Positions 7,508 to 13,427 of a stretch of DNA of 64,000 bases are shown here, piece after piece; within the stretch, counting starts at the first letter, position 1, and each line of letters opens with the position of its first letter. This stretch comes from Candidatus Cloacimonadales bacterium. GTDB lineage: Bacteria; Cloacimonadota; Cloacimonadia; Cloacimonadales; JAFGVF01. The translations under genes and the position numbers were made by a program. Location of the stretch: the NCBI GenBank assembly GCA_963667035.1, contig OY762964.1:2208001-2272000 (forward strand). The letters are read 5' to 3'. A model generated the notes under the pieces. The model made no database searches and was not told where the DNA came from. It saw only the letters and a program-made list of their open reading frames with translations.

Positions 7508-8629
7508 CTAAGCTCCTAGTCCTCTAAAGTCTATATATGCTTTGTTTTTACTGTTTGTTACATCAGGAGTAACTTGTATTAATCTGTTATAAATCTTTTC
7601 AATCATTTCCTTATTATTATCTTCGGATGTATAATAAACAAACTGCTTTGCACTGTCATGTTTTATTGCTAAACTGACAATGTTCTCTCGAGGCTCAAAT
7701 AACAGAACCGAGAAAGAGTAAGTAAATATTATCTCTCTCATCACCTTTCCAAAGGCTTCTATTTCTCTATTAGAGTCACAGCAAGAATCTATGGACTCAG
7801 CTTCACTTATGTATTTCAGATAGTTATTCTTATCTTCTTTTAAATCACTATATCTAACAAAAAGCTTCTTTTTACCTATCTCAGGTGTTACTTGAACAAG
7901 GATTGTCTCCACTATACTTGGATTACCATTGTTACTAACTATAACATCTTCATACTCTATTCTCTCAAACTCCGATTGAATCACTTCGTATGAATTTTTA
8001 CCGAAGCTACTTGGGTCAATCGTTTTTATACCTAATCCTCTAAAGTCTAGAGTCTCACTTTTACACTCACTACAAGTTTTAGGAGTATAGCTGCTTAGTT
8101 TCATGTATACTTTAGCTACTTGATTATCTACATCCCTATCAAGAGCAAAGAAATCAAACGCTTTACCATCAGCTTTTCTTATAGCAATTCCGTATGGTTT
8201 CATCTCTTTCTCAATTAGCATAACTTCTGTGTTATCATTGAGTATAATCTCTTTAGATACCTTACCTACTCTTCTTATCTCTCTTAAGGATTCACATGTT
8301 GACCATATCTTACCATTCTTTACAATTGATTTTAACAAAGGTAATGCTTTACCCCTACTCCCTTTTAACTTTGTTTTCTTGTTTAACTCATCAATTGAGA
8401 ATATTAGAGTTTTGTCCTCACTCTTGTAGTTAACTATAACACTTACTTCTGTTATTATTTCTCTGGGATTATTAGGATTCCTTTTTGCGAAATGCCTGAT
8501 AGATTCATAGTCAGAGAGAATTGCTTCGACTTCATCACCGGACCCGGTAATAAAAGCTGGTGGAACTCAGCCTGATGCAAAAACATTTATTGTAAATAGA
8601 ACAGTTAAAACTAATATAACTACTTTCAT
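7508..8629 (-). CDS. Candidate exported selenoprotein (373 aa) with in-frame TGA at codon 21
   Basis: AAGGAG then ATG at 8629; MKVVILVLTVLFTINVFASG-TGA-VPPAF... is open and in frame with the 7508-8338 ORF; SECIS-like hairpin downstream. Confidence 0.75.
8529..8557 (-). promoter_or_regulatory. Bacterial SECIS-like stem-loop
   Basis: GCUUUUAUUACCG-GGUC-CGGUGAUGAAGU; the apical loop begins with G, 22 nt after the UGA at 8569-8567. Confidence 0.7.
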
Positions 8630-9609
8630 TAGATCTCCTTTTGAAACTTTCTGATATGAAATAGCACGAGTACCCTCTTCACAATTCTCTTAGCCAACTC
8701 TTTTAATTCAAAAATATTAGCTACAGCAATCGTGAAATACTTCATTTTGGGATCTAAAGGCCATGATAACTCTGGGAATTTATAGCCCTCAGCTCTACCC
8801 CATTTGATGAATGCTAATATTGATTCCAAATATATTAGTTTCCTTTTGGGAAACCTTTTCCAGTAACGGGGTCTTCCTGGACCAAGATGTGCTAAATATA
8901 TCTCATTATCACTATCAAATTTACCACTTGTTAAGGGTGGCACCTCTCTTGAAAATGTTAGCAATGAGTTTAATACCGATTCATCTAATTGAGAATAAGC
9001 AGTAAGAGAGTAATCATAGGCTACACCGGTGTTGTAATTAGGCAATACTTTCATCATCTGCTTATGCCATTTCTCTATAAACCAAAGATAGTCTGTATGT
9101 ATAGATAGATTACCTCCGGCTACCGTATTCTTTCTCTGTGGACTATCTAGTTCATTAACATCTCTCTTCCATTGCTTAAGAATAATCATTGGAATACCAC
9201 CATATTCATCTTCACGGGTATAGTATTTTGAGAATACCCAACCGTCTTCTTTAGGGGATTTGAAACGAGCTGATAATGAGGGATTATCTTGCTTAAAGAA
9301 GGGAGTAATATCTCCAGTAGCAATGCAATCTCCATCAAAGAGACTGATTATTTCAAATCCGCAATCCTTAGCAGTAAGAATAGCTTCTGCTTTACGTGTC
9401 GTAGGATTCCTTAGATTACTCATATCAGCATCAAAAGTTCTTACATCTTCAAACTGTGAAAACAACTCTTTCTCTTCCTCAGATAAACCTACACATAAAA
9501 CATGTATATTAGTCTTTACTTTATAATATTTTAGAGACAGAATTAGGATAAATGTCGGTATTATATATCCATTGTCGGTAATTGTTACGACAACTGCCGA
9601 ATTTTTCAT
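8629..9609 (-). CDS. Glycosyltransferase-like protein (GT-A fold, GT8-like)
   Basis: TDNGY...SL N-terminus, FDGD DxD motif, DESVLN and HLG motifs. Confidence 0.6.
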   Translation of the reverse strand: MKNSAVVVTITDNGYIIPTFILILSLKYYKVKTNIHVLCVGLSEEEKELFSQFEDVRTFDADMSNLRNPTTRKAEAILTAKDCGFEIISLFDGDCIATGDITPFFKQDNPSLSARFKSPKEDGWVFSKYYTREDEYGGIPMIILKQWKRDVNELDSPQRKNTVAGGNLSIHTDYLWFIEKWHKQMMKVLPNYNTGVAYDYSLTAYSQLDESVLNSLLTFSREVPPLTSGKFDSDNEIYLAHLGPGRPRYWKRFPKRKLIYLESILAFIKWGRAEGYKFPELSWPLDPKMKYFTIAVANIFELKELAKRIVKRVLVLFHIRKFQKEI

Positions 9610-9681: not shown

Positions 9682-10686
9682 CTACTCAATATTGAGAATA
9701 TCAACAACCGGAAGTTCCGGTAAATACTCTCTAATAGTAGACGCTAAACCCTCACTATCTACATGATTACCATTAATTGCACTACTATTAACTGCTATAG
9801 CATTCATAAGGAACGGATATATTGTTTTAATATCCATCTCTTCTTGCATTAGTTTTACGTTAACAAGGTCAAGCTGGAGATTAAAAGGATGTTTGATTAT
9901 TATCTCTCCATGAAAATCCAGAAAATAACTACCAAGATTATGCCAATTCTTACCTGTAATTGCTCCCGGAATATAAATTCTATCTGGATAATACTCGTGA
10001 CATAGTTCTAAGAACCGTTTCTCATTCCCTAAAAGTGACATTAGATTAGTTGTAATCCATTCATCTTTATACAGAGAGATAAACTCTGTTTTATCAGAAA
10101 ATTCTTTAGTAACAGGTATACTTTTCAAAATCTGTAGTCTTCTGAGTTCTTTAACAATCATCTCTATACTACCATAGTTAGCTCCGGCAGCAATAATCAT
10201 AGCCTGGATACTATCATTAAGAAGTACTGCCTTTCTATCCAGGGAACCATCAATAATAATTGTTGAAGCTCCAAGAATCCTTAATCTCTCTATAATTTCC
10301 TTCTGATCTGTTACACTTGCAGGACCAACTATCTCTGCCTCTGTATCCATTATTGCTTTAACGATCCAAATATCCTTCCCCCCCGCTTTGTATCTAGTTC
10401 TTTCTAGAACTTCATAGCAGTGAGGATTTCTTTTTATCTCGTCAGCAAAAGTAGTAAAGATAGTATTCTTTGCAATTAATACCTTTGGCTTCTCGGTACC
10501 AAAAACCGTGTCTTTATCCTCTCCATCTCTGCCTGTCGTTGTCAGACCGAATCTATATACGGAGTAATGTTTAAGAATCCAGTTTACTAAAGAAGTCTTC
10601 CCTGCATTCTTAGAAAGACCGGTTATTGCTATAACCATTCTGTCGTTAGGGAAAAGAGCTTTTTTGATTTGATCGTAGATTGTCAT
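9682..10686 (-). CDS. Lysine-fermentation cluster P-loop protein (KamB-like)
   Basis: GLSKNAGKT, GRDGEDKD and IDGSLDRK motifs; directly after kamA. Confidence 0.7.
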   Translation of the reverse strand: MTIYDQIKKALFPNDRMVIAITGLSKNAGKTSLVNWILKHYSVYRFGLTTTGRDGEDKDTVFGTEKPKVLIAKNTIFTTFADEIKRNPHCYEVLERTRYKAGGKDIWIVKAIMDTEAEIVGPASVTDQKEIIERLRILGASTIIIDGSLDRKAVLLNDSIQAMIIAAGANYGSIEMIVKELRRLQILKSIPVTKEFSDKTEFISLYKDEWITTNLMSLLGNEKRFLELCHEYYPDRIYIPGAITGKNWHNLGSYFLDFHGEIIIKHPFNLQLDLVNVKLMQEEMDIKTIYPFLMNAIAVNSSAINGNHVDSEGLASTIREYLPELPVVDILNIE

Positions 10687-10722
10687 GAGAAAATATGCCC
10701 CCATGAAGGGGGCGTTAGGTAA

Positions 10723-11991
10723 TTATTTCTGTTTATTTTTAAAAGCTTGAATCTGCTTCTGTCTGTTATTGCGTTTAGAATCTTCAGGACCAAATGATAG
10801 TTTGTTTCCGTAAAGTAGATTCATAACTCCATCATCTGAACGTCTAACTTCTTCAACTAAACCTGAATAATCTTCTCTATTCTGTTCCTTATACTCAGGT
10901 TCCGTATAAGTTGTAATAAAACCTTCATAGTTTCGTAGAATAACTCTACCCGGCATTTGAGAGAGAATGTAATTAGGTTGAACCGGTATTTTACCACCGC
11001 CACCGGGAGCATCCACAACAAACGTAGGAACACAAAGTCCGGAAGTATGACCTCTTAATGACTCGATTATCTCTATACCCTTTGAAATAGGAGTTCTAAA
11101 ATGTGATATCCCCTCTGAGAGGTCACATTGATAGATATAATAAGGTCTCACACGATTCTTAACAAGCATGTGTACGAGTTTCTTCATAACTTCCACATGA
11201 TCATTTACACCTTTTAGAAGAACAGTTTGATTGCCTAATACAACACCTGCTTCAGCAAGTTTTCTTAATGCTTCTACTGCATCCTGAGTGATTTCATTAG
11301 GATGATTGAAATGTGTGTTAAACCAGATAGGAGGATATTTCTTAAGCATATTGCATAAACTATCTGTAATCCTCTGAGGAAGAACAACAGGAGTTCTAGA
11401 GCCAATTCTAATTATATCAACATGGTCAATTTTATAGAGTTGAGAAATAATCTCTTCTAATCTCTCTTCTCCTAGTGTTAATGGATCTCCACCACTAATA
11501 ATAACATCTCTGACTTCCTTATGTTGTCTGATGTATTCGATGCCCTTTTGAATCTCTTCCATTGGAACTGCCATATCTTTCTCTCCGGCTTTACGACGGC
11601 GAGTACAGTGGCGACAGTACATAGAACACTGATCAGTAACTAAAAGAAGTGTTCTATCAGGATAACGATGTGTGAGACCCTTTGCAGGAGAATCCACATC
11701 TTCATGAAGAGGGTCAGCCATATCATTTCTAGACAAAAAACTTTCCATTATCGCAGGTATTGCCTGCAATCTTACAGGATCTTTAGGGTCATCAGGCTTG
11801 ATAAGTGAAAGGTAATACGGTGTTATTGCCATTCTAAATGAAAAATCTTCATCAGCGAATAAAGCTTCTTCGTCTTCAGTTAGGACAATATACTTTTTCA
11901 ATTCTTCGACTGTTGAAATACGATTTCTCAATTGCCAATGCCAGTCATTCCACTCCTGTTCAGTTGCTATAGATTTTATATCTGTTACCAT
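10723..11991 (-). CDS. kamA: L-lysine 2,3-aminomutase
   Basis: WNDWHWQL, THRYPDR, CSMYCRHCTRRR radical-SAM motif, SGGDPL and DAPGGGGKIP. Confidence 0.97.
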   Translation of the reverse strand: MVTDIKSIATEQEWNDWHWQLRNRISTVEELKKYIVLTEDEEALFADEDFSFRMAITPYYLSLIKPDDPKDPVRLQAIPAIMESFLSRNDMADPLHEDVDSPAKGLTHRYPDRTLLLVTDQCSMYCRHCTRRRKAGEKDMAVPMEEIQKGIEYIRQHKEVRDVIISGGDPLTLGEERLEEIISQLYKIDHVDIIRIGSRTPVVLPQRITDSLCNMLKKYPPIWFNTHFNHPNEITQDAVEALRKLAEAGVVLGNQTVLLKGVNDHVEVMKKLVHMLVKNRVRPYYIYQCDLSEGISHFRTPISKGIEIIESLRGHTSGLCVPTFVVDAPGGGGKIPVQPNYILSQMPGRVILRNYEGFITTYTEPEYKEQNREDYSGLVEEVRRSDDGVMNLLYGNKLSFGPEDSKRNNRQKQIQAFKNKQK

Positions 11992-12012
11992 TTTAACCTC
12001 TTATATAAGATA

Positions 12013-12040
12013 GAAAAAGCTCAGTTCCCTGAGCTTTTTC
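12013..12040. terminator. Hairpin between kdd and kamA
   Basis: GAAAAAGCTCAG-TTCC-CTGAGCTTTTTC perfect inverted repeat. Confidence 0.6.
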
Positions 12041-12057
12041 AATTATGTTTATTATTG

Positions 12058-13119
12058 CTAGTCAGTATATCTTTCTTTAAAGAGCTTCATTAATGTTTCG
12101 TTTCTTCTAAGAAGATCAATAGATATCATTGCATGATTATGAGCATAACCGTTACCAAGAATCATATCTACGTCTGCACCGATACCTTCAGCACCAAGAG
12201 CAGCTTTAGTAAAGCTTGTTGCCATTGAGAAGAAATAAACAACACCTCTGTCTTTACAAGCCATGATAGAGCCCATCTCTGTGTTATCAACATTAACTAC
12301 GTTAACAACGAGGTCAGCCATCTTACCATTTGTAGCTTTGTGAACAATTTCCTCTACTTGTACAGCGTTTGTGGCATCTGCAATCTCAACAATATCACAA
12401 CCTGTATTGTAACAATCATCAACATGGTTTGCTGAGTGAACAAGTCCGATTACCTTTCCTGATACTCCAACTCTTTCTTTTGCAATTGCATTACAAAGAA
12501 CACCTGATTTTCCACCTGAACCGAGAATAACAACTGTATCACCCGGTTTTGCAAGTCTTTCAACTTGAGCAGGAGCTCCGGCAACATCAAGGATAGATAA
12601 TGCAAGATTTTCATCCATATCTTCAGGTAACTTTGCGTATATACCTGAACTAAACAGGATTGCTTGTCCCTCAATATCAACCTGATCTTTATTTAAATGA
12701 ACTTTCTTAACTGTCTTCACTTTAAGAGGTGTAAGGGATAAAGAAACAAGTGTAGCTATTGTATCACCGACTTTAACTTCTTCTTTCATCTCAAAGTTTG
12801 GTCCTATAGCTGCAACTTTACCGATAAGCATTCCGCCTGAACCGGTATCTTCGTTTTTATGTTTTCCTGTTCTTTCAGTGAGATCAATAACATGATTAGC
12901 AAAAGCTTGTTCAAGATCATTCTCATGTCCTTGAGCAATGAGTTTTTCTTTAATCTGATGGAAAGACGCAGAGTCTACATTAAGACGAATTACATCAATC
13001 AACATCTCGTTGTCCCAAATTTCACTCATGTCATTGTTAACTACTCTAGCAGGCTGTGGTAAAACACCTTGTGGCTCAACAACTCTATGTGTGCCGTAAC
13101 GATTTCCACATGTTCTCAT
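12058..13119 (-). CDS. kdd: L-erythro-3,5-diaminohexanoate dehydrogenase
   Basis: YGTHRVVEPQGVLPQPA, LNVDSASF, TGSGGMLIG, LDVAGAPAQ and FFSMATSFTKAALGAEG motifs. Confidence 0.93.
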   Translation of the reverse strand: MRTCGNRYGTHRVVEPQGVLPQPARVVNNDMSEIWDNEMLIDVIRLNVDSASFHQIKEKLIAQGHENDLEQAFANHVIDLTERTGKHKNEDTGSGGMLIGKVAAIGPNFEMKEEVKVGDTIATLVSLSLTPLKVKTVKKVHLNKDQVDIEGQAILFSSGIYAKLPEDMDENLALSILDVAGAPAQVERLAKPGDTVVILGSGGKSGVLCNAIAKERVGVSGKVIGLVHSANHVDDCYNTGCDIVEIADATNAVQVEEIVHKATNGKMADLVVNVVNVDNTEMGSIMACKDRGVVYFFSMATSFTKAALGAEGIGADVDMILGNGYAHNHAMISIDLLRRNETLMKLFKERYTD

Positions 13120-13427
13120 CAAAAACCTCCGTATATAGTTTTATTTTGCGTATTTTACAAACAATTTTCAGCAACTTCAAACTCTGTCAATAGAAATCCC
13201 TACCAAGTTGTTTAAAGCTATATATCAATACTGATTCCAACTATGTTAAGAAATCAATATTTCATCAGATAAAGGTAGATTATCAAGTTTTCTGTACATA
13301 ATATATATATGGTCCACTTCTTTTTCTTTTTTCGACAACATATATCATAATGACAGTGAAAACACTAAAATTCATAATCTTATTGACAGGCTAACAGGTC
13401 GAATTTTCCCTACAATCAGAGGAAAAT

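What the first reader, a model, noticed from the sequence alone, without database searches (positions are those of the whole stretch)
7508..8629. Hidden selenoprotein candidate with Sec at the signal-peptide / lipobox position
Seen: the 276-aa ORF (TTG start) extends 97 codons upstream to an ATG at 8629 that has an AAGGAG RBS and TAATG coupling to the previous gene. The only interruption is TGA at codon 21 (8569-8567): MKVVILVLTVLFTINVFASG-U-VPPAFITGSGDE. A long stem, GCUUUUAUUACCG-GGUC-CGGUGAUGAAGU, follows with its apical loop 22 nt after the UGA. Established: bacterial SECIS elements lie just 3' of the UGA with a G at the start of a small apical loop. Inference: this is an exported selenoprotein of a family I do not recognise. 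F-A-S-G-U fits a lipobox with Sec in place of the lipidated Cys; alternatively SPase I cleavage after VFA gives an N-terminal SGU. A CxxC (TCSEC) and a CC lie further downstream. A Sec-lipidated protein would be very unusual.
Basis: partly seen in the sequence, partly recalled or inferred. Interest (0 to 1): 0.9.

Follow-up and report, generated by a model that had tools for sequence, protein, structure and literature searches.

The report
Exported selenoprotein with N-terminal selenocysteine
A gene that databases show as a truncated hypothetical protein is really one 373-codon gene for an exported protein of a Cloacimonadota bacterium, and its "stop" codon directly behind the signal peptide most likely encodes selenocysteine, which defines a tiny uncatalogued selenoprotein family of unknown function.

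Summary
Window 8629..7508 (-) is one frame of 373 codons, broken only by TGA at codon 21 (8569-8567), directly behind a signal peptide. Five genes in three genomes of the genus carry a TGA at the same aligned place: this one, three tandem paralogues in G001 and one in G002. Identity between them falls to 23%. In 4 of the 5 a hairpin follows whose apical loop (GGUC, GUUU or AGUU) starts exactly 22 nt after the UGA; the G002 copy is weakened. Four stem pairs show compensatory changes while the encoded amino acids differ. The genome has selA, selB, tRNA-Sec and a Sec-containing selD. A second exported selenoprotein family in the genus, which has a Cys homologue, uses the same GGUC loop.

The lipobox idea is not supported. 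Position -1 is G, G, N, Q and C in the five genes. A signal peptidase I site after x-F-[AGS] fits all five and puts Sec at mature position 2-7, on a tail predicted to be disordered.

The family matches no Pfam or NCBIfam model and no solved fold, and no Cys homologue was found. It appeared in 3 of 232 Cloacimonadota genomes. Function is unknown.

Earlier notes of this scan describe the same signal-peptide/TGA layout on unrelated DNA of other phyla.

The parts
8635..8640 (-). Shine-Dalgarno AAGGAG, 5 nt before the ATG
   Evidence: the four homologous genes also have purine-rich sites before their starts
8570..8629 (-). Start ATG (8629-8627, overlapping the upstream gene's TAA as TAATG) and 20-codon signal peptide MKVVILVLTVLFTINVFASG
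   Evidence: All five family genes have an N-terminal hydrophobic signal-like peptide in frame with the TGA. It diverges fast (29 of 54 nt differ, window vs G001b) but stays hydrophobic.
8567..8569 (-). In-frame TGA, codon 21, proposed selenocysteine codon
   Evidence: A TGA stands at the aligned position in 5 of 5 family genes.
8532..8553 (-). SECIS-like hairpin: 9-bp upper stem, apical loop GGUC at 8544-8541, loop starts 22 nt after the UGA. The lower stem may extend it to 8557-8529.
   Evidence: Criteria taken from PMC13188914. The same GGUC loop occurs in the SECIS of the CxxU family of the same genus.
8015..8566 (-). Domain 1 (residues 22-205). A tail of low model confidence U-VPPAFITGSGDE (pLDDT below 50 to residue 35), then a beta-sheet/helix domain with C112 and C186-x-x-C189, ending in LDFRGLG.
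   Evidence: Alignments. AF2 model (mean pLDDT 75.3, residues 1-35 below 50). Cys positions.
7511..8014 (-). Domain 2 (residues 206-373). It is the counterpart of the separate gene G001c, fused in frame here with loss of that gene's signal peptide, its TGA and the 5' arm of its hairpin. It contains C283-C284 and ends in IDFRGLGA.
   Evidence: (second match, model positions 24-202, no stop)
7508..7510 (-). TAG stop of the full gene
8629..9609 (-). Upstream, translationally coupled 326-aa gene: GT-A fold, GT8-like (glycogenin/LgtC-like) glycosyltransferase. It is the conserved neighbour of the Sec gene in all three genomes.
   Evidence: glycogenin-1, E 0.005; pLDDT 88.3; Foldseek: glycogenin, LgtC, WbbM, GlyE at E 2.6e-8 to 4.2e-7

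Best explanation
Window 8629..7508 (-) is one gene. The ribosome starts at the ATG at 8629 and makes a 20-residue Sec-pathway signal peptide. At UGA codon 21 SelB with Sec-tRNA(Sec) is recruited by the hairpin whose GGUC loop starts 22 nt downstream, and selenocysteine is inserted instead of termination.

The precursor is exported. It is most likely cut by signal peptidase I after V-F-A, which would give a mature protein beginning S-G-U-V-P-P. The selenol would then sit on a flexible N-terminal tail of about 15 residues, ahead of two tandem copies of a small beta/alpha domain of no recognised fold.

Shown here: the conserved TGA, the conserved and covarying hairpin, the Sec machinery, and the in-frame signal peptides. 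Inferred: actual Sec insertion, export, and the cleavage site.

Function is a low-confidence inference. The invariant feature of the family is the tip motif U-x-P-[P/S]. I therefore take the tethered selenol to be the working group in the periplasm or at the cell surface, either redox-active or binding a soft metal or chalcogen. In the window-type members it may exchange with C112 and C186xxC189.

A side consequence follows: without selenium, translation would stop after 20 codons, so synthesis of the protein would depend on selenium.
For: 1. One open frame with a single TGA.

2. The TGA is conserved in 5 of 5 family genes, at the aligned place just behind the signal peptide. These are the window gene, G001a, G001b, G001c and G002. 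Protein identity to the window gene is only 53, 34, 23 and 45%.

3. The annotated post-TGA starts are not conserved: window codon 98, G001b codon 44, P0004 about codon 38. The window's start at codon 98 would delete strands 42-50 and 58-66 of the modelled domain.

4. The hairpin:
- The loop starts 22 nt after the UGA in all five genes.
- The loops are GGUC, GGUC, GUUU, AGUU and GGUC.
- 86.7% of pair cells are paired, and 4 of 9 pairs show changes on both sides. Controls slid by 1-3 columns give 0-1.
- The stem is kept although it encodes ITGSGD, ITGSGN, IIGFGN, YVEFDN and ITGSDD.
- 4 of 5 meet all four bSECIS criteria quoted in PMC13188914: loop 3-9 nt, stem 4-16 bp, G in the first two loop positions, spacing 16-37 nt, and MFE at or below -7.5.

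5. There is extra nucleotide constraint behind the UGA. Between window and G001b, 5 of 36 nt differ in the 12 codons after the TGA. That compares with 29 of 54 in the signal peptide and 174 of 474 in the body. Third positions differ at 2 of 12 against 85 of 158 (Fisher p 0.016).

6. A natural control exists. In the window's domain 2 the TGA of the G001c-type gene is gone, and so is the 5' arm of its hairpin.

7. The machinery is present:
- SelA, SelB and tRNA-Sec.
- SelD is itself a Sec protein.
- SelA is also present in G001, G002 and G003.

8. TGA is otherwise a stop codon: 215 of 1726 ORFs of 200 aa or more end in it.

9. A positive control in the same genus. A signal-peptide/T9SS protein with CxxU has a TGA in 15 relatives, a Cys homologue in G030 (WCTGCG aligned to YCLSUG), and a SECIS loop GGUC.

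10. An SPase I site x-F-[AGS] fits 5 of 5. VFA|Q-type sites are seen in other signal peptides of the phylum and of this genome.
Against: - No Cys-containing homologue was found, so the classic Sec/Cys test is missing.
- There are only five TGA-bearing genes, in three genomes of one genus. That is below the ten examples Haft asks for.
- Kin are not independent, and the three G001 genes are tandem paralogues.
- Folding energies are not better than shuffles: 18, 43, 18, 7 and 154 of 200 shuffles fold as well.
- The G002 hairpin has a C.A mismatch and fails the energy criterion (-4.5 to -5.5 kcal/mol).
- The pair statistics rest on 5 rows. 20 of 500 shuffles reach the number of double-changed pairs, and 48 of 500 reach the paired share.
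- No Rfam SECIS model matched.
- G001c has ATG directly after its TGA, so a signal-less product is conceivable there.
- Export and the cleavage site rest on inspection only; no SignalP or LipoP run was possible.
- Function has no support from fold or context. The best structural Z is 4.2 and Foldseek gives nothing at E of 0.001 or below.
Confidence: 0.78

Rival explanations
1. Selenocysteine is inserted as above, but the precursor is a lipoprotein. F-A-S-G-U is read as a lipobox. Lgt transfers diacylglycerol to the selenol, forming a selenoether. LspA then cuts before Sec, and the protein is anchored by a lipidated selenocysteine.
For: - The window (A-S-G-U) and G001b (G-A-G-U) have G at -1 and a small residue at -2.
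- Lgt and LspA are present in the genome.
- A crude census of Cys residues behind hydrophobic N-termini in this genome gives G, A or S at -1 in 97 of 154 cases.
- A relative's protein shows ...IYAGGC, a similar box.
Against: - Position -1 is N in G001c, Q in G002 and C in G001a, so 3 of 5 genes fail the box.
- Position -3 is A or G, not L/V/I. In this genome's census -3 was A in 6 and G in 7 of 154.
- A single processing mode that fits all five is SPase I.
- No lipoprotein with Sec at +1 turned up in my searches: 'selenoprotein' + 'lipobox' gave 2 irrelevant papers, and the 2026 review does not contain the words lipoprotein or signal peptide.
Confidence: 0.1
2. There is no recoding. The TGA terminates a conserved 20-26-residue hydrophobic leader peptide, and the hairpin is a regulatory or stalling structure. 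The real protein starts further downstream and stays in the cytoplasm.
For: - Gene callers produce exactly this result (P0002, P0003, P0005, P0006, P0012).
- G001c has TGA-ATG, a layout that could support termination followed by reinitiation.
- The hairpin energies are unremarkable.
Against: - Downstream starts are not conserved, and in the window the start lies inside the fold at codon 98.
- Amino-acid similarity runs in frame straight through the TGA into a stretch with no start codon.
- The upstream peptides look like signal peptides, not like conserved leader peptides: 29 of 54 nt differ while hydrophobicity and the c-region are kept.
- The hairpin has no U-tract and matches the SECIS loop of a validated Sec gene of the genus.
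Confidence: 0.07
3. The UGA is read through without SelB, by a near-cognate tRNA or a lineage-specific reassignment, giving Trp, Cys, Arg or Gly at position 21.
For: The frame must be read through to make sense. No experiment here identifies the residue that is inserted.
Against: - TGA ends 215 of 1726 long ORFs, and ordinary genes are intact under table 11.
- The full Sec machinery and a SECIS-like hairpin are present.
- The sister family shows a Sec/Cys pair.
Confidence: 0.03
4. The gene is a pseudogene, or the TGA is an assembly error.
For: - The family is tiny and fast-evolving.
- The G002 copy has an internal deletion and a weakened hairpin.
Against: - The same TGA is present in five genes of three assemblies, with no other stop or frameshift in 143-373 codons.
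- Contigs of three runs agree with the assembly.
- The G002-type ORF recurs unchanged in length class in 5 cluster members from several sources.
Confidence: 0.02

Closest known systems
Bacterial selenoprotein genes of the E. coli fdhF type (in-frame UGA plus an in-ORF SECIS hairpin bound by SelB); bSECIS consensus as quoted in PMC13188914
   Same: - UGA inside the ORF.
- A hairpin immediately 3' of it, with a 4-nt apical loop starting with G or GG-U, 22 nt from the UGA.
- selA, selB, selC and selD in the genome.
- GGUC is, from my recall, also the fdhF loop sequence.
   Different: - The protein family is new: no Pfam, NCBIfam or PDB relative.
- No Cys homologue was found.
- Sec lies at codon 21, directly behind a signal peptide, not in an enzyme active-site fold.
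Signal-peptide-bearing selenoproteins of the SAO system (SaoB, SaoC) and the PCUGP tip of HgcA (Haft 2022 preprint, 10.1101/2022.07.06.499078; passages read)
   Same: - Exported or N-terminally extended proteins that gene callers cut at the UGA.
- Sec often sits in short CU-type motifs next to Pro or Gly. G001a reads S-C-U-G-P-P-P, against HgcA's P-C-U-G-P.
   Different: - No sequence relation, and no SAO or hgc genes nearby.
- SaoB has Sec at residue 72, inside a substrate-binding fold.
- Here Sec is 1-6 residues from the predicted cleavage site, on a disordered tail.
CxxU/CxxC T9SS-secreted protein family of Cloacimonadota, found here (G000:C1:2102508-2103521)
   Same: - Same genome and genus.
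- A signal peptide, an in-frame TGA, and a SECIS hairpin with a GGUC loop.
- It shows that this lineage exports selenoproteins.
   Different: - An unrelated protein with Sec at residue 86 in a CxxU motif, and with Cys homologues.
- A T9SS C-terminal domain.
- Much wider distribution: a TGA form in 15 of 40 relatives searched.
Bacterial lipoproteins (lipobox [LVI][ASTVI][GAS]C, Lgt/LspA pathway; motif recalled from PROSITE PS51257)
   Same: A short signal peptide ends in small residues directly before a chalcogen amino acid in the window gene and in G001b. Lgt and LspA are present.
   Different: The +1 residue is Sec, not Cys. Position -1 is N, Q or C in 3 of 5 members, and -3 is not L/V/I.
SelD, with Sec in an N-terminal flexible loop (described so in PMC13188914)
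   Same: Sec lies very near the N-terminus on a flexible segment. This genome's SelD has its UGA at about codon 21 of the frame, so early UGA decoding works here.
   Different: SelD is cytoplasmic, is an AIRS-fold enzyme, and has many Cys homologues.

Membership tests
SelB/SECIS-dependent bacterial selenoprotein gene | In-frame UGA kept at the same aligned position in homologues | tested here: met
   5 of 5 family genes in 3 genomes
SelB/SECIS-dependent bacterial selenoprotein gene | bSECIS consensus: 3-9 nt loop, 4-16 bp upper stem, G in the first two loop positions, 16-37 nt from the UGA, MFE at or below -7.5 kcal/mol (PMC13188914) | tested here: met
   The window gene meets all four: loop GGUC, 7-9 bp stem, 22 nt spacing, -12.4 to -14.2 kcal/mol. 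4 of 5 genes meet all four; G002 fails on energy and has a C.A mismatch. No bSECISearch run was possible and no Rfam model matched.
SelB/SECIS-dependent bacterial selenoprotein gene | Covariation supporting the hairpin | tested here: met
   4 of 9 pairs are changed on both sides and 86.7% of cells are paired; slid controls give 0-1 such pairs. Only 5 rows, and 20 of 500 shuffles reach the count.
SelB/SECIS-dependent bacterial selenoprotein gene | Sec machinery (selA, selB, tRNA-Sec, selD) in the genome | tested here: met
   SelA also in G001-G003
SelB/SECIS-dependent bacterial selenoprotein gene | Homologues with Cys at the Sec position | tested here: not met
   None among 5 hits of 1.84 billion representatives, 232 phylum genomes, or two searches of 5.8 billion clusters. 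This weakens the case but does not exclude it; Sec-only families exist.
SelB/SECIS-dependent bacterial selenoprotein gene | At least ten independent examples with 100% TGA (Haft's working criterion) | tested here: not met
   Only 5 genes whose DNA could be read. The DNA for P0004/P0007 could not be fetched.
SelB/SECIS-dependent bacterial selenoprotein gene | Selenium demonstrated in the protein | not testable with these tools
   Needs 75Se labelling or mass spectrometry.
Bacterial lipoprotein (lipobox, Lgt/LspA) | Cys at +1 preceded by [GAS] at -1 and a hydrophobic residue at -3, kept across the family | tested here: not met
   +1 is Sec. -1 is G, G, N, Q, C and -3 is A, G, G, F, H in the five genes. 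Genome census.
Bacterial lipoprotein (lipobox, Lgt/LspA) | Lgt and LspA encoded in the genome | tested here: met
Sec-pathway secretory protein cut by signal peptidase I | n-, h- and c-regions, and small residues at -3/-1 of a common site | tested here: met
   By inspection only. The sites are NVFA|SGU, SLFG|AGU, SVFG|SNU, NLFA|QU and ILFS|AGSHSCU. G001c lacks a basic n-region. SignalP was not available.
Any catalogued selenoprotein family (Pfam, NCBIfam NF04xxxx/TIGR models listed in PMC13188914) | Match to a family model | tested here: not met
   No NCBIfam hit at E of 0.01 or below for the window protein, and only one irrelevant hit at E of 0.1 or below for the G001 paralogues. The only Pfam hit is below threshold (NAPRTase_C, 16.9 bits against a 23.3 cut-off).

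The most novel reading that the evidence does not exclude
In the window gene and in G001b the selenocysteine is the +1 residue of a working lipobox (A-S-G-U, G-A-G-U). Lgt would alkylate the selenol and LspA would cut before it, giving a protein anchored through a diacylglyceryl-selenoether. That would be a lipid modification of the 21st amino acid, which my searches did not find described. The N/Q/C paralogues would be soluble sister forms.

A broader, compatible reading joins this family with the CxxU T9SS family of the same genome. I found no FdhA-type molybdopterin enzyme and no GrdA/GrdB in this genome. This lineage may therefore keep the whole Sec apparatus mainly for proteins that work outside the cytoplasm.
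Probability: 0.1. Interest if true: 0.9.

Novelty: new variant of a known kind. Interest (0 to 1): 0.62.

Why it matters
Selenoproteins are nearly always catalogued as redox enzymes with Sec in a folded active site and with Cys-containing relatives. This case differs in five ways:
- Sec is the first conserved residue of the mature, exported protein, and it sits on a flexible tail.
- No Cys form was found in any search.
- The domain has no recognisable fold.
- The family is confined to one genus of an uncultured phylum.
- Every database copy is truncated by gene callers.

The three tandem G001 genes each keep their own signal peptide, UGA and SECIS. The fusion in this window lost all three together. 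This gives a natural experiment linking the hairpin to the UGA.

If selenium incorporation is confirmed, the family offers a minimal module of about 45 codons (signal peptide, UGA, SECIS). Such a module could be used to study how Sec insertion and Sec-translocon export coexist. It could also be used to place a selenol at the tip of an exported protein.

The scan's earlier, unchecked notes report the same layout in Planctomycetota and Dehalococcoidales. Sec-tipped exported proteins may therefore be a recurrent, overlooked class.

Tried and rejected
- **Rfam:** a scan of 8300-8700 at E up to 10 gave only two chance hits and no SECIS family.
- **The search for related loci, P0001 in genome contigs:** one spurious 27% hit in a Vicinamibacteria MAG.
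- **The search for related loci, A4 and P0004 in metagenome contigs:** 242 and 365 pattern hits, none confirmed. The DNA upstream of P0004/P0007, a sixth family member from JGI data, could therefore not be checked for a TGA.
- **Three weak phylum hits** (G089, G171, G016; E 4e-4 to 8e-4): these were signal-peptide similarity only.
- **Covariance model R1:** it found only its five training sites in G000-G003.
- **Fold of domain 1:**
  - Foldseek against PDB gave nothing at E of 0.001 or below; the top hits were polo-box domains at E 0.075 and above.
  - VIA-align wide gave a best Z of 4.2 (AcrIF13) and none at 5 or above.
  - A PDB profile search found nothing.
- **Sequencing runs:** only three runs of one sample, the likely source, hold the locus. 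No RNA holder is listed, so nothing can be said on expression.
- **De novo TGA scans of the genome:**
  - They were noisy and even missed this locus in the stricter version.
  - They recovered SelD and led to the CxxU family.
  - Candidates at C1:2495382 and C1:787047 stayed unresolved.
- **Neighbour orthologues:** I looked for a Sec or Cys secreted partner downstream of orthologues of the GT8-like neighbour in other genera and found none. Those copies are followed by a GT4-like gene or by unrelated ORFs.
- **Literature:**
  - No paper holds Cloacimonas, Cloacamonas or Cloacimonadota together with selenocysteine or selenoprotein.
  - 'selenoprotein' + 'lipobox' gave 2 irrelevant papers.
  - 'selenocysteine' + 'signal peptidase' + 'SECIS' gave 5 irrelevant papers.
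  - The Zophobacter paper PMC8542988 has no word starting with 'seleno'.
Full report
**1. The observation**

On the minus strand an ATG at 8629-8627 overlaps the TAA of the preceding gene (TAATG). An AAGGAG lies 5 nt upstream of it. Read with TGA=U, 8629..7508 gives 373 residues with a single recoded codon, U21 at 8569-8567. The context is MKVVILVLTVLFTINVFASG-U-VPPAFITGSGDE.

The 276-aa TTG ORF listed by an ORF finder is what the public protein collections hold (P0002). The CxxC is C186/C189 and the CC is C283/C284. Contigs of three runs of one sample, probably the assembly's source, are identical across 8300-8800.

Within this genome alone the pattern is not beyond chance:
- A scan for 'signal-like peptide, stop, at least 100 open codons' gave 5 TGA, 6 TAA and 5 TAG cases. 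Only this locus looked like a clean signal peptide.
- The hairpin's energy is ordinary for its composition (z -1.39).

**2. Comparative evidence**

A six-frame search of 60 relatives found the protein only in the same genus. In every match a TGA lay inside. G001 carries three tandem paralogues and G002 carries one.
- G001a: ...LFSAGSHSC-U-GPPPKY
- G001b: ...SLFGAG-U-APPSFITGSG
- G001c: ...SVFGSN-U-MPSSSIIGFG
- G002: ...NLFAQ-U-APPSFITGSDD

All five genes have an in-frame, hydrophobic, signal-like N-terminus, and the TGA falls in one alignment column. Identity to the window protein is only 53, 34, 23 and 45%.

The family is very narrow in every search:
- A profile search of 232 Cloacimonadota genomes found true matches in 3 (G000, G001, G002). 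G003, of the same genus and 72% complete, had none. Three weak hits were signal peptides only.
- HMMER against 1.84 billion representatives gave 5 proteins, all cut at or behind the TGA.
- Two searches of the 5.8-billion-cluster collection added only the truncated G001a.
- One further member (P0004/P0007, JGI) exists, but its DNA could not be fetched.
- No member has Cys, Trp, Arg or Gly at the site.

The taxon rests on two points. Earlier notes of this scan call the genome Cloacimonadales. A member of the G002-type cluster is named Candidatus Zophobacter franzmannii by NCBI.

**3. The hairpin**

I aligned the sequences from the UGA to +47 (A3). All five place a 4-nt loop exactly 22 nt after the UGA. 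The loops are GGUC, GGUC, GUUU, AGUU and GGUC.

For a 9-bp stem the counts are as follows:
- 86.7% of cells pair.
- 4 pairs carry changes on both sides, and 2 pairs never vary.
- Partner columns slid by 1-3 give 0-1 double changes and 29-62% pairing.
- 20 of 500 shuffles reach the double-change count.

The stem is maintained although it encodes ITGSGD, ITGSGN, IIGFGN, YVEFDN and ITGSDD. The constraint is therefore on the RNA, not on the peptide.

The nucleotide pattern agrees. Between the window gene and G001b, 5 of 36 nt differ in the 12 codons after the UGA. In the signal peptide 29 of 54 differ, and in the body 174 of 474. Third positions differ at 2 of 12 against 85 of 158 (p 0.016).

The bSECIS consensus quoted in a 2026 review (PMC13188914; passages read) has four criteria: loop 3-9 nt, stem 4-16 bp, G in the first two loop positions, and spacing 16-37 nt with MFE at or below -7.5. 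Four genes meet it fully.

Points against:
- G002 has a C.A mismatch and only -4.5 to -5.5 kcal/mol.
- Shuffles fold as well in 18, 43, 18, 7 and 154 of 200 trials.
- No Rfam model matched.

A natural control lies in the window itself. Its residues 206-373 are the counterpart of the separate gene G001c, fused in frame. The fusion removed that gene's signal peptide and its TGA. The 5' arm of its hairpin is gone too.

**4. Machinery and a positive control**

The genome encodes SelA and an adjacent SelB and a tRNA-Sec. Its SelD is itself a Sec protein, with a UGA early in the frame and a hairpin 17 nt downstream. SelA is also present in G001-G003. TGA is a normal stop here, ending 215 of 1726 ORFs of 200 aa or more.

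While surveying TGA-containing frames I met a second exported candidate, at G000:C1:2102508-2103521. Its features:
- A signal peptide, the motif GVYCLS-U-G, and a T9SS C-terminal domain.
- Its N-terminal domain recurs with one TGA in 15 relatives and without a stop in three.
- In G030 a Cys aligns with the U: WCTGCG against YC[LV]SUG.
- Its SECIS has a GGUC loop 29 nt after the UGA, conserved in G000-G003.

This shows that the genus decodes UGA as Sec in exported proteins, using the same loop as the gene under study.

**5. Processing**

The lipobox reading fits the window gene (A-S-G-U) and G001b (G-A-G-U). It does not fit G001c (G-S-N-U), G002 (F-A-Q-U) or G001a (H-S-C-U). Lgt and LspA do exist. 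A crude census of this genome shows G, A or S at -1 in 97 of 154 candidate sites, and L/I/V/F at -3 in 111 of 154.

Cleavage by signal peptidase I after x-F-[A/G/S] fits all five genes. The same VFA|Q style is seen in other signal peptides of the phylum and of this genome. That puts Sec at mature position 2-7.

AlphaFold models residues 1-35 with pLDDT below 50 and the rest of domain 1 mostly at 80-94 (mean 75.3). The Sec would thus sit on a flexible tail.

**6. Function and context**

The domain has no recognisable relative:
- Foldseek gives nothing at E of 0.001 or below.
- VIA-align gives a best Z of 4.2.
- A PDB profile search finds nothing.
- There is no significant Pfam or NCBIfam match.

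Window-type members (window, G001b, G002, P0004) share C112 (except G002, where that segment is deleted) and CxxC. The other two types do not. What all TGA-bearing members share is the tip U-x-P-[P/S] and a C-terminal [IL]-D-[FL]-R-G-[LM]-G.

I therefore propose a tethered selenol that acts extracytoplasmically, either in redox exchange or in binding a soft metal or chalcogen. This is inference only. G001a's S-C-U-G-P-P resembles the P-C-U-G-P tip that Haft reports for HgcA, but that is a five-residue resemblance.

Gene order is conserved in the three genomes: KamA-like radical SAM, KamB-like, a 326-aa gene, the Sec gene(s), then a convergent gpsA. The translationally coupled 326-aa neighbour is a GT-A, GT8-like glycosyltransferase:
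- Its profile matches glycogenin-1 at E 0.005.
- Its model has pLDDT 88.3.
- Foldseek matches glycogenin, LgtC, WbbM and GlyE at E 2.6e-8 to 4.2e-7.

That family occurs in 40 of 232 phylum genomes. Elsewhere it is followed by a GT4-like gene or unrelated ORFs, not by a secreted Sec or Cys protein. The pairing says little about function.

**7. Comparison and novelty**

Mechanistically this is an fdhF-type UGA/SECIS gene. Three things are new:
- The protein family itself.
- The absence of a Cys form.
- The place of Sec, directly behind the signal peptide on a tail predicted to be disordered.

Signal-peptide selenoproteins are known: SaoB and SaoC in Haft's preprint, and a multihaem MccSep preprint seen only in a search listing. 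A Sec this close to the cleavage site did not turn up in my searches. The 2026 review never uses the words signal peptide, lipoprotein, secreted or periplasm, and the parts of its family table that I read show nothing similar. I did not read that table in full, nor its supplements.

Earlier unchecked notes of this scan describe the same layout in unrelated families of Planctomycetota, Dehalococcoidales and others. The architecture may be recurrent. Those notes are leads, not evidence.

**8. Verdict**

- Real selenoprotein gene: about 0.85.
- Exported and cut by SPase I, leaving a Sec-tipped tail: about 0.65.
- Se-lipidated lipoprotein: about 0.1.
- Function: unknown.

I rate it a new variant of a known kind, with interest 0.62.

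Noticed in passing
outside the window: G000:C1:2102508-2103521 (+) = L056:209-1225: A second exported selenoprotein candidate. It has a signal peptide, GVYCLS-U-G (CxxU) at residue 86 and a T9SS sorting domain. A TGA is kept in 15 relatives, and Cys stands in its place in G030. The SECIS loop GGUC lies 29 nt after the UGA. There is no Pfam or NCBIfam model for the N-terminal domain.
   Followed up: partly
window 7511-8014 (-) versus L004:2106-2717: The window protein is an in-frame fusion of two genes that are separate in G001. The fusion deleted the second gene's signal peptide, its TGA and the 5' arm of its hairpin.
   Followed up: yes
window 8629-9609 (-): The translationally coupled neighbour is an unannotated GT8-like (glycogenin/LgtC-like) glycosyltransferase with a long C-terminal helix. 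Its family is present in 40 of 232 Cloacimonadota genomes, and a paralogue lies at G000:C1:2503959-2504792.
   Followed up: yes
window 9682-13122 (-): Lysine-fermentation-type genes lie just upstream on the same strand: a KamA-like lysine 2,3-aminomutase (10723-11991), a KamB-like protein below the NCBIfam cut-off (9682-10704; 185.5 against 210 bits), and a zinc-ADH-like protein (12058-13122). Their order is conserved in G001 and G002.
   Followed up: partly
whole genome G000: The full Sec machinery is present, but I found no molybdopterin (FdhA-type) enzyme and no GrdA or GrdB (the GrdA/GrdB controls rang nowhere, so those two blanks are weak). SelD and the two exported families are the only Sec users I could identify.
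   Followed up: partly
outside the window: G000:C1:2495382 (-) in L054, and C1:787047 (+) in L057: Two further in-frame TGAs lie between coding-like stretches. The first reads ...DVKC-U-YDPFF, sits beside an IS-like gene and a T9SS-tail ORF, and is possibly a broken gene. The second reads ...NPIML-U-FGDPV and has an 8-bp hairpin 24 nt downstream. Neither gave a family match.
   Followed up: partly
window 8021-8041 and 7514-7534 (-), and the ends of the G001/G002 genes: Every domain of the family ends in a conserved [IL]-D-[FL]-R-G-[LM]-G, at or a few residues from the C-terminus. I cannot explain its role.
   Followed up: no
L005:1588-2019 (G002) and cluster members P0008-P0011: The Ca. Zophobacter franzmannii-type copy lacks about 50 residues of the domain, including the STCES cysteine, and has a weakened hairpin. 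The short form nevertheless recurs in five cluster members from several sources.
   Followed up: partly
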